IMG/VR virus record: IMGVR_UViG_2541047935_000004
DNA: 26,865 nucleotides
Strand: one strand, 5' to 3'
Source of the DNA: a virus
Lineage: Duplodnaviria > Heunggongvirae > Uroviricota > Caudoviricetes
The translations under genes and the position numbers were made by a program. Positions 2,175-2,455 of the stretch are shown here, piece by piece. The notes beneath the pieces were generated by a model that was not told the DNA's origin, ran no database searches, and saw only the letters and a list, made by a program, of their open reading frames with translations. Positions within the stretch are counted from its first letter, which is position 1. Each line of letters begins with the position of its first letter.

Positions 2175-2455
2175 AGTAATAATGCCGGTATCAGTTTTTA
2201 TCATCACTCTGTTTGCTGTTTAACCAGACTGGTGTGATTACTGATGCAGTGAAGACCTTCCCGCATCCTGACTCACACAGCGATCGACCCTTTGTGTCCT
2301 GCCCTGGACCTGTCGGTTGCCGGAAGCGCCTTCATGCGAGGCGTCTCCTCACCGATGCGCGTGACTCAAGAAGGGCCTGACGGTTTGTCTCGTTACTGTC
2401 CTGTCCGGGTTATCTGTCTGGAGATTCAACTCTGTTTCCTCACAGGAGCTCTGTT

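What the first reader, a model, noticed from the sequence alone, without database searches (positions are those of the whole stretch)
2175..2455. IS110-family element with a split junction promoter and a long 5' leader that may encode a bridge (guide) RNA
The element (2175..5508, excluding nested IS100) has about 280 bp of non-coding sequence upstream of its recombinase gene and only 16 bp downstream. A near-consensus -35 box TTGACT sits at its right end (5489..5494, overlapping the recombinase stop) and an AATAAT/TAATAA -10 box at its left end (2177..2183). Joining the two ends in a circle would place them 16 to 17 bp apart, forming a strong sigma70 promoter that reads into the leader; in the linear chromosomal context no good -35 lies upstream. 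This is the architecture described for IS110/IS621-type elements whose leader encodes the structured bridge RNA that programs target and donor recognition. The recombinase is knocked out by IS100, so the leader is a fossil, but its RNA and its IS911-orfB target junction (CAGCGAT | CAGGGCAG) could still define a target/donor pair.
Basis: partly seen in the sequence, partly recalled or inferred. Interest (0 to 1): 0.65.

Follow-up and report, generated by a model that had tools for sequence, protein, structure and literature searches.

The report
ISEc21 bridge (seek) RNA leader

Summary
Window 2175..5508 is ISEc21 (IS110 family, 1374 bp). IS100 (3174..5127) splits it, and it sits after the second catalytic Asp codon of an IS3-family transposase gene. 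The leader and both ends are identical to the ISEc21 copy tested by Siddiquee et al. 2024 (PMC11187229). That paper showed a circle with a junction promoter, an essential upstream non-coding region, a recombinase-bound 74-nt seekRNA and this same IS3 target. The finding is therefore already known.

My tests agree with the paper. A covariance model built only from distant relatives hits 2252..2414 (152 bits, E 1.6e-42). In the curated structure 95% of cells are paired, against 34-46% in slid controls. The left target guide CACAGCGAUC (2276..2285) and the right target guide CUGCCCUG (2299..2306) match the flanks, and the left guide covaries with the flanks across relatives.

Two points go beyond that paper. 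First, the leader has a second loop (2357..2410) that resembles a donor-binding loop; its right guide covaries with the element's left end in 157 copies. Second, many distant relatives, though not ISEc21 itself, carry a second left-guide module in the 5' hairpin, and that module matches a second class of insertion sites.

The parts
2175..5508 (+). ISEc21 (IS110 family), 1374 bp of its own sequence, interrupted by IS100
   Evidence: Aligns to intact copies L001 and L082. It differs at 4 bases (element positions 403, 479, 627, 1332) from the experimentally used copy LT903847.
2175..2455 (+). Left-end non-coding leader (281 bp) that encodes the bridge/seek RNA
   Evidence: Identical to the non-coding region printed in Supplementary Table 1 of PMC11187229, allowing for PDF read errors, and to L001 and L082.
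2178..2183 (+). -10 box AATAAT of the circle-junction promoter
   Evidence: Sequence. Lies 17 bp from the -35 box once the ends are joined. Conserved in relatives. The junction promoter is published.
5489..5494 (+). -35 box TTGACT of the circle-junction promoter; overlaps the stop codon TGA at 5490..5492
   Evidence: Sequence. TTGAC(A/T) is conserved in almost all relatives' right ends.
2189..2246 (+). 5' stem-loop of the RNA. Its apex, about 2213..2233, is a degenerate counterpart of the second left-guide module found in distant relatives.
   Evidence: The outer stem 2189-2195/2240-2246 shows compensatory changes.
2257..2326 (+). Target-binding loop with its closing stems. It contains the published 58-nt seekRNA-2, which is element positions 89-147 = window 2263..2321.
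   Evidence: Helix 2 has 9 of 13 pairs with compensatory change. Coordinates.
2276..2285 (+). Left target guide CACAGCGAUC. It has the same sequence as the top strand of the left flank 2166..2174 plus C5509, so it would pair with the bottom strand.
   Evidence: Sequence. The guide covaries with the flank across relatives: 7.13 of 9 matches against 5.92 after permutation, 0 of 10000 permutations as high.
2299..2307 (+). Right target guide CUGCCCUG(G), complementary to the right flank CAGGGCAG (5509..5516); G2307 can wobble-pair with T2174.
   Evidence: Sequence. Relatives' guides track CAGGG, CAAGG and CGCGG flanks.
2336..2353 (+). Middle hairpin between the two loops
   Evidence: Helix 4 has 4 pairs with compensatory change.
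2357..2410 (+). Second internal loop built like the first (UGAC - 13 nt - GAC hairpin GUC - 13 nt - GUC); read as the donor-binding loop
   Evidence: Helices 5 and 6. Lies within the covariance-model hit 2252..2414.
2369..2376 (+). Left donor guide candidate AGAAGGGC, the same sequence as right-end bases 5498..5505
   Evidence: Sequence. Both the guide and the right-end segment are invariant in relatives, so covariation cannot be tested.
2392..2398 (+). Right donor guide candidate GUUACUG, complementary to C5508 joined to AGTAAT (2175..2180), with one G-T wobble
   Evidence: Left-end base +4 A goes with U in the guide (122 copies) and +4 C goes with G (35 copies), with no exception in 157 copies.
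2444..2448 (+). Ribosome-binding site AGGAG, 7 nt before the ATG at 2456
   Evidence: Sequence. GGAG is conserved in alignment A1.
2456..3173 (+). Recombinase gene, N-terminal part (DEDD/RuvC-like domain)
   Evidence: PF01548, E 8.9e-20.
3174..5127 (-). Nested IS100 (istA 4019..5041, istB 3240..4022), with a 6-bp direct repeat CTATTG at 3168..3173 and 5128..5133
   Evidence: Matches are annotated as IS100kyp istB.
5134..5492 (+). Recombinase gene, C-terminal part
   Evidence: PF02371, E 1.8e-12. The rejoined reading frame gives 358 aa, with 3 substitutions relative to the tested protein.
1665..2174 (+). Left half of the target: orfB of an IS3-family element, ending ...CAC AGC GAT (His-Ser-Asp); premature TAG at 2131..2133
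   Evidence: Annotated as IS3 family transposase at the same locus in L203.
5509..5817 (+). Right half of the target: orfB continues CAG GGC AGC (Gln-Gly-Ser)...

Best explanation
Window 2175..2455 is the left-end leader of ISEc21 and encodes its bridge RNA, called seekRNA by Siddiquee et al.

Shown experimentally for an element with an identical leader and ends (PMC11187229):
- The element excises as a circle with abutted ends, and the junction creates a promoter.
- The upstream non-coding region is required for circle formation and transposition.
- A 74-nt RNA from that region co-purifies with the recombinase.
- The RNA carries stretches that match both strands of the target.
- The target is the codons around the second Asp of the DDE motif in IS3-family transposase genes.
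- Changing the RNA retargets the element.

Shown here:
- The junction promoter is TTGACT, 17 bp, AATAAT.
- The RNA fold is conserved with compensatory changes.
- The left guide (2276..2285) equals the top strand of the left flank, and the right guide (2299..2306) is complementary to the right flank.
- A second loop of the same design (2357..2410) carries AGAAGGGC, which equals the right end, and GUUACUG, which is complementary to the joined right and left ends.

Inferred: the full RNA of about 165-220 nt is a two-loop bridge RNA, as in IS621, that holds target and donor together for the DEDD/serine recombinase. The published short seekRNA would be its target-loop half.

In this copy IS100 splits the recombinase gene and the linear context has no promoter. 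The RNA is therefore probably silent here. The leader and ends are intact, so an intact ISEc21 in the same cell could in principle mobilise the element.
For: - Identity: 1370 of 1374 bases match the experimentally tested copy, and all four differences lie inside the recombinase gene. The leader equals the published non-coding sequence.
- Published experiments: (PMC11187229).
- Protein domains.
- Promoter: none in the linear context. The joined ends pass sigma-70 criteria in 33 of 44 relatives, against 1 of 44 for the linear arrangement.
- Structure: 95.2% of cells are paired, against 34-46% in slid controls. 22 of 41 pairs show compensatory change, and 0 of 500 shuffles reach the observed values.
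- Model test: a covariance model built from 44 distant relatives, with the ISEc21 clade left out, gives a single hit in 26.9 kb, at 2252..2414, 152.1 bits, E 1.6e-42.
- Left target guide and flank: 0 of 10000 permutations reach the observed match.
- Right donor guide and left end: complete association in 157 copies.
- An intact ISEc21 sits at the same chromosomal site in E. coli FDAARGOS_536.
Against: - Rfam 15 gives no hit in the leader. Nothing in it matched, so this is only absence of a matching curated model.
- The minimum free energy of the leader alone is not exceptional (z = -1.81).
- Target and donor share no core dinucleotide in register: the target reads GAT|CAG and the donor GTC|AGT. 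IS621 has such a shared core.
- The AGAAGGGC match to the right end stops 3 nt short of the terminus and is 2 nt out of register with the left target guide. Because it never varies, covariation cannot support it.
- The published assays worked with RNAs that lack my second loop: the trans RNA of element positions 8-179, and the 58-nt RNA. The need for a donor loop in ISEc21 is therefore unproven. Sun et al. interpret such target-loop-only events as partial 'direct transfer'.
- Expression of the RNA in this genome was not tested.
Confidence: 0.93

Rival explanations
1. Single-loop seekRNA model. Only the 58-74-nt target loop (about 2263..2321) is the functional guide. It recognises the target halves that flank the donor as well as the new target. 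The downstream loop 2357..2410 is then not a donor guide but part of the mRNA leader, for example for processing or translation control.
For: In PMC11187229 an RNA of element positions 8-179, and a 58-nt RNA, supported movement detected by PCR. Target sequence flanking the donor was required. The short RNA was the most abundant recombinase-bound species.
Against: The second loop copies the architecture of the first: UGAC, 13 nt, GAC...GUC, 13 nt, GUC. It is among the most conserved parts of the leader. Its right segment covaries with left-end base +4 in 157 copies without exception. In the deletion construct lacking positions 20-150 the loop (positions 183-236) was still present in cis. Sun et al. 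attribute target-loop-only events to partial top-strand transfer.
Confidence: 0.1
2. The leader is an ordinary 5' untranslated region, or encodes a small protein, and its matches to the flanks are chance.
For: An 80-codon ORF with a TTG start (2292..2534) overlaps the leader. The fold energy alone is not significant.
Against: The experiments on the identical sequence. The alignment has indels that are not multiples of three, and its helices show compensatory changes. The guide covaries with the flank. The covariance-model hit has E 1.6e-42.
Confidence: 0.01
3. The element ends lie elsewhere, so the -35 and -10 boxes are never brought together.
For: None found.
Against: The ends are defined by an intact copy and by about 70 independent insertions with different flanks. 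Circle junctions with abutted ends were sequenced in PMC11187229.
Confidence: 0.01

Closest known systems
ISEc21 and its seekRNA (Siddiquee, Pong, Hall and Ataide 2024, Nat Commun, PMC11187229)
   Same: It is the same element: 1370 of 1374 bases are identical, with an identical leader and ends. It has the same target (the second Asp codon of the DDE motif in IS3-family transposase genes), the same junction promoter, and the same target-matching stretches in the same order (bottom-strand match 5' of the top-strand match).
   Different: This copy is interrupted by IS100, and its recombinase has 3 substitutions. My reading adds a second loop, at element positions 183-236, that resembles a donor-binding loop. 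The paper does not describe that loop.
IS621 bridge RNA (Durrant et al. 2024, PMC11208160; Hiraizumi et al. 2024)
   Same: The RNA is encoded in the left end and transcribed from a circle-junction promoter. It has a 5' stem-loop followed by two internal loops. The left guide has the sense of the top strand and the right guide is complementary to the top strand, for both target and donor.
   Different: The sequence is unrelated, and the target is an IS3 transposase codon motif rather than a REP element. There is no shared core dinucleotide in register (target T|C, donor C|A). The left donor guide match is offset by 2-3 nt from the crossover. The recombinase is longer (358 aa).
ISMch6 and ISKpn60 (ISEc21 relatives named in PMC11187229)
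   Same: They belong to the same subfamily. The paper reports natural retargeting of ISMch6 through three base changes in the bottom-strand guide, which is the same kind of guide-target covariation I measured across about 110 copies.
   Different: They are different elements and were not examined individually here.
Circle-junction promoters of IS492, IS911 and ISPpu10
   Same: A -35 box at one end and a -10 box at the other form a promoter only on the excised circle (PMC12288879).
   Different: In ISEc21 the junction transcript carries the guide RNA ahead of the recombinase mRNA.

Membership tests
IS110 family (IS110 group) insertion sequence | N-terminal DEDD (RuvC-like) transposase domain | tested here: met
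   PF01548, 71.5 bits, E 8.9e-20, on 2456..3175.
IS110 family (IS110 group) insertion sequence | C-terminal IS116/IS110/IS902 domain | tested here: met
   PF02371, 47.9 bits, on 5133..5489. The intact homologue scores 197.9 bits on NF033542 'IS110 family RNA-guided transposase', cut-off 140.
IS110 family (IS110 group) insertion sequence | No terminal inverted repeats and no target-site duplication | tested here: met
   The ends AGTAATAATG... and ...AGAAGGGCGTC are not inverted repeats. The target CACAGCGAT|CAGGGCAGC is split with no duplicated base.
IS110 family (IS110 group) insertion sequence | Long non-coding left end and short right end (IS110 group, as opposed to IS1111 group) | tested here: met
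   281 bp upstream and 16 bp downstream. The criterion comes from PMC11208160.
ISEc21 (the named element) | Near-identity over the full length to the reference or tested copy | tested here: met
   1370 of 1374 bases match LT903847 1802057..1803430. RefSeq annotates matching copies as ISEc21 family.
Bridge RNA / seekRNA | Conserved structured non-coding RNA in the non-coding end | tested here: met
   Covariation. A covariance model from distant relatives hits 2252..2414 at E 1.6e-42.
Bridge RNA / seekRNA | [quoted passage not shown] | tested here: met
   CACAGCGAUC equals the left flank plus C. CUGCCCUG is the reverse complement of CAGGGCAG. The left guide covaries with the flanks.
Bridge RNA / seekRNA | Donor-binding loop: right donor guide complementary to the left end of the element | tested here: met
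   GUUACUG pairs with C|AGTAAT. Left-end base +4 and the guide base covary in 157 of 157 copies.
Bridge RNA / seekRNA | Donor-binding loop: left donor guide matching the right end of the element | tested here: inconclusive
   AGAAGGGC occurs in both the loop and the right end. Both are invariant, and the match ends 3 nt before the terminus.
Bridge RNA / seekRNA | Core dinucleotide shared by target and donor and included in all four pairings (IS621 model) | tested here: not met
   The target reads GAT|CAG and the donor GTC|AGT. In the register of the guides the two central bases are TC in the target and CA in the donor. PMC11187229 likewise reports no duplicated base.
Bridge RNA / seekRNA | RNA binds the recombinase and is required for recombination | not testable with these tools
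   Published for the identical leader in PMC11187229.
Bridge RNA / seekRNA | Promoter assembled at the circle junction | tested here: met
   TTGACT, 17 bp, AATAAT on joining the ends. There is none in the linear context. It is conserved in relatives and published.
Rfam curated RNA family | Match to any Rfam 15 covariance model | tested here: not met
   No hit in 2175..2455 even at E up to 10.

The most novel reading that the evidence does not exclude
The ISEc21 subfamily may use bridge RNAs with two alternative left target guides.

[quoted passage not shown] Its guide differs from the guide in the main loop. The module reads CACAGCGAU or AAYACCGAU, whereas the main loop reads CAYUCNGAU.

Natural insertions of these elements fall into two classes of left flank, and each class matches one of the two guides:
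- Among elements whose main-loop guide is of the TCN type, those without the module had 0 AGY-type flanks out of 28.
- Those with an AGY-type module had 16 AGY-type flanks out of 34.
- Those with an ACN-type module had 9 ACN-type flanks out of 16.

The Fisher tests gave 1.3e-5, 1.3e-4 and 4.9e-7. A second guide would let one element attack two synonymous or related codon versions of the catalytic His-Ser-Asp / Asn-Thr-Asp motif of its prey transposases.

In the window the homologous place, about 2213..2233, is a degenerate remnant. I found no description of this module in the searchable literature.
Probability: 0.45. Interest if true: 0.65.

Novelty: already known. Interest (0 to 1): 0.2.

Why it matters
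The finding itself confirms that a reader working from sequence alone can recover the bridge-RNA architecture, but it adds no new biology. ISEc21 is the published IS110-type seekRNA example.

Two by-products may be useful:
- The ISEc21 leader contains a conserved second loop whose right segment covaries with the element's left end. This brings ISEc21 into line with the two-loop bridge-RNA model and bears on the published disagreement between the single-loop 'seekRNA' results and the two-loop 'bridge RNA' results.
- Distant relatives seem to carry a second, alternative left target guide. If it works, it is a natural way of widening the target range of an RNA-guided recombinase, and it could be copied in engineered bridge RNAs.

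Tried and rejected
- **Rfam:** a scan of 1800..5800 at E up to 10 gave only four chance-level hits outside the leader. Rfam 15 gives no bridge-RNA match here.
- **IS4321/IS5075:** I first suspected that the many plasmid hits at 90-95% identity were the IS1111-type elements IS4321 or IS5075. The long left end, the short right end and the RefSeq annotation show they are ISEc21-family elements, so I dropped the idea.
- **Shared core:** I looked for a shared core dinucleotide by shifting the boundaries by one or two bases. No register gives one. Aligning the TC of the target with the TC of the donor predicts junctions that are not observed.
- **Heteroduplex repair:** I asked whether right flanks that start with A instead of C are traces of heteroduplex repair across a staggered cut. 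They are more simply explained as natural Asn, Lys or Arg codons after the Asp codon, so I rejected this.
- **Single-sequence folding:** folding the leader alone gave z = -1.81. That is not informative on its own, so the comparative analysis carried the argument.
- **RNAalifold helix:** RNAalifold paired the AGGGC of the left donor guide with bases after the right donor guide. The helix has no covariation and conflicts with the loop design, so I left it out of the curated structure.
- **IS100 junction:** I searched for the ISEc21::IS100 junction in 5,426 complete E. coli genomes and found none.

Full report
**What is in the window**

The region 2175..5508 is a copy of ISEc21, an IS110-family insertion sequence of 1374 bp. 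An intact copy on plasmid pMAR2 (L001) aligns to 2175..3173 and 5128..5508. The flanks diverge exactly at 2175 and 5508. Between the two parts lies IS100 (3174..5127, 1954 bp, genes on the minus strand), bounded by a 6-bp repeat CTATTG.

The recombinase gene starts at 2456 and stops at 5490..5492. That leaves 281 bp of leader and 16 bp after the stop. The two gene halves carry PF01548 (DEDD) and PF02371. The intact homologue passes NCBIfam NF033542, 'IS110 family RNA-guided transposase'.

The element sits inside orfB of an IS3-family element, between GAT and CAG of His-Ser-Asp|Gln-Gly-Ser. No base is duplicated or lost.

Every coordinate is right.
- TTGACT lies at 5489..5494 and overlaps the stop codon.
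- AATAAT lies at 2178..2183.
- Joining the ends gives a 17-bp spacer and 10 of 12 consensus matches.
- The promoter scan finds nothing in the linear context 1900..2600.
- Among relatives, 33 of 44 distinct right-end/left-end pairs pass the same criteria when joined. Only 1 of 44 passes for left flank plus left end.

**It is already known**

ISEc21 is the IS110-type element studied by Siddiquee et al. 2024 (PMC11187229). They showed:
- a circular form with abutted ends and a junction promoter;
- loss of circle formation when leader bases 20-150 are deleted;
- rescue by leader bases 8-179 supplied in trans;
- a 74-nt recombinase-bound seekRNA, of which 58 nt (positions 89-147) suffice;
- matches in that RNA to both strands of the target;
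- the target itself, the codons around the second Asp of the DDE motif in IS3-family transposase genes;
- reprogramming of the element by changing the RNA.

The copy they used (LT903847 1802057..1803430, fetched as L082) differs from the window copy at four bases. All four lie inside the recombinase gene, so the leader and ends are identical. The published 58-nt RNA corresponds to window 2263..2321.

**Independent tests**

I fetched 80 relatives from genomes (68-99% protein identity) and 120 from metagenomes. Results on the genome set:
- Fifty-four non-redundant leaders align well (A1).
- A curated structure of six helices has 95.2% of cells paired, against 34-46% when the partners are slid.
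- 22 of 41 pairs show compensatory changes, and 0 of 500 shuffles reach the observed values.
- A covariance model built only from 44 distant relatives, with the ISEc21 clade left out, finds one hit in the whole window: 2252..2414, 152.1 bits, E 1.6e-42.
- Rfam 15 has no match.
- Folding the single sequence is uninformative (z = -1.81).

**Guides for the target**

The first internal loop carries CACAGCGAUC (2276..2285). This equals the top strand of the left flank plus the first base of the right flank. It also carries CUGCCCUG (2299..2306), the reverse complement of CAGGGCAG.

Across relatives the left guide follows the flank. Guides of the AGC, TCN and ACC types sit next to flanks of the same type. 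The guide matches its own flank at 7.13 of 9 positions, against 5.92 after permutation, and 0 of 10000 permutations are as high.

**A second loop**

Bases 2357..2410 repeat the design of the first loop: UGAC, 13 nt, GAC hairpin GUC, 13 nt, GUC.
- The left segment contains AGAAGGGC, which is identical to right-end bases 5498..5505.
- The right segment, GUUACUG, is complementary to the joined ends C|AGTAAT.
- In 157 copies, left-end base +4 is A whenever the guide has U (122 copies) and C whenever the guide has G (35 copies), with no exception.

I read this loop as the donor-binding loop of a two-loop bridge RNA like that of IS621. The 2024 paper does not describe it. Its trans RNA (positions 8-179) lacks the loop, while its deletion construct kept the loop in cis. 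Sun et al. 2025 interpret events driven by the target loop alone as partial 'direct transfer'. How much ISEc21 needs this loop remains untested.

**Departures from the IS621 model**

Target and donor share no core dinucleotide. In the register of the guides the central bases are TC in the target and CA in the donor. The left donor guide also matches 2-3 nt further from the crossover than the left target guide does. Both points are unexplained. Top-strand-only transfer, as Sun et al. propose, would not need a shared core.

**State of this copy**

IS100 splits the recombinase gene at element position 999, and no promoter reads into the leader in the linear state. The RNA is therefore probably not made here. 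The leader and ends are intact.

The same chromosomal site holds an intact ISEc21 in E. coli FDAARGOS_536. The site is in a defective lambdoid prophage next to icd. None of 5,426 complete E. coli genomes has the ISEc21::IS100 junction. About a fifth of those genomes carry ISEc21-like sequence.

**A side finding in relatives**

Many distant relatives carry a conserved copy of the left half of the target loop in the apical loop of the 5' stem-loop, with a different 9-nt guide. The counts below are for elements whose main guide is of the TCN type, taken from 114 unique combinations of flank, main guide and module guide.

| 5' module | Flanks found |
|---|---|
| none | 25 TCN, 1 ACN, 0 AGY, 2 other |
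| AGY type | 16 AGY, 16 TCN, 2 other |
| ACN type | 9 ACN, 6 TCN, 1 other |

The Fisher tests give 1.3e-5, 1.3e-4 and 4.9e-7. The 64 copies with a module fall into 26 sequence clusters. Flanks matching the module occur in 14 clusters, and 4 clusters hold both kinds of flank.

This suggests two alternative left guides in one RNA. I found no paper that describes it. ISEc21 itself has only a degenerate remnant at about 2213..2233.

**Verdict**

The finding is already known, so its interest is low. The second loop and the second guide in relatives are the parts worth following up.

Noticed in passing
Related loci, e.g. L078:~900-960, L079, L074, L081, L051, L101, L102, L144, L166, L172 (5' hairpin of the leader); homologous place in the window about 2213..2233: The apical loop of the 5' stem-loop holds a second left-guide module, YUGAC-YCN-[9 nt]-N-GACC. 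Its guide differs from the guide in the main target loop. Insertion flanks of these elements match either one guide or the other: with an AGY-type module 16 AGY and 16 TCN flanks, with an ACN-type module 9 ACN and 6 TCN flanks, and without a module 0 AGY flanks in 28.
   Followed up: yes
Window 2357..2410 (with 2175..2180 and 5498..5508): This is a second internal loop with the same design as the target loop. Its segments match the element's own right and left ends, and its right segment covaries with left-end base +4 in 157 copies. The ISEc21 paper does not describe it, and its trans RNA (positions 8-179) stops just before the loop.
   Followed up: yes
Window junctions 2174|2175 and 5508|5509: Target (GAT|CAG) and donor (GTC|AGT) share no core dinucleotide in register, unlike IS621. 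The match of the left donor guide to the right end stops 3 nt short of the terminus.
   Followed up: partly
L060, L062, L065 (flanks GTAGAAGGGGTC | element | AGTAAAAG); L033 left flank CTCAGAAGGGCCTG; right flanks starting AGT/AGC in L003, L005, L012, L019, L070: Some copies lie in sequence that resembles the element's own joined ends (a donor-like site), or have a right flank that resembles the left end. This hints at insertion into pseudo-donor sites, or at recombination between the right end and sequences that resemble the left end.
   Followed up: no
Window 3174..5127: IS100 is inserted in the ISEc21 recombinase gene with a 6-bp repeat CTATTG. This junction occurs in none of 5,426 complete E. 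coli genomes. The same locus with an intact ISEc21 occurs in strain FDAARGOS_536.
   Followed up: yes
Window 2131..2133 and 1..1127: The host IS3-family orfB has a premature TAG upstream of the ISEc21 insertion. The neighbouring phage-type integrase gene (minus strand) is split into two reading frames (1..492 and 588..1127). Both genes are therefore decayed.
   Followed up: no
Window 5854..26865: The surroundings look like a defective lambdoid prophage next to icd. By comparison with L203 it holds replication genes, a 1302-aa inverse autotransporter (7697..11605), an alpha/beta hydrolase, ybcN/ninE/rusA/quuD-type genes and a porin gene.
   Followed up: partly
L035 and L074, right ends: Two relatives have short extra repeats at the right junction: GGGCGTCCAGGGGTC|CAGGGCAG in L035 and GGGCGTCAGTC|CAGGGC in L074. 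These may be traces of imprecise or repeated recombination.
   Followed up: no
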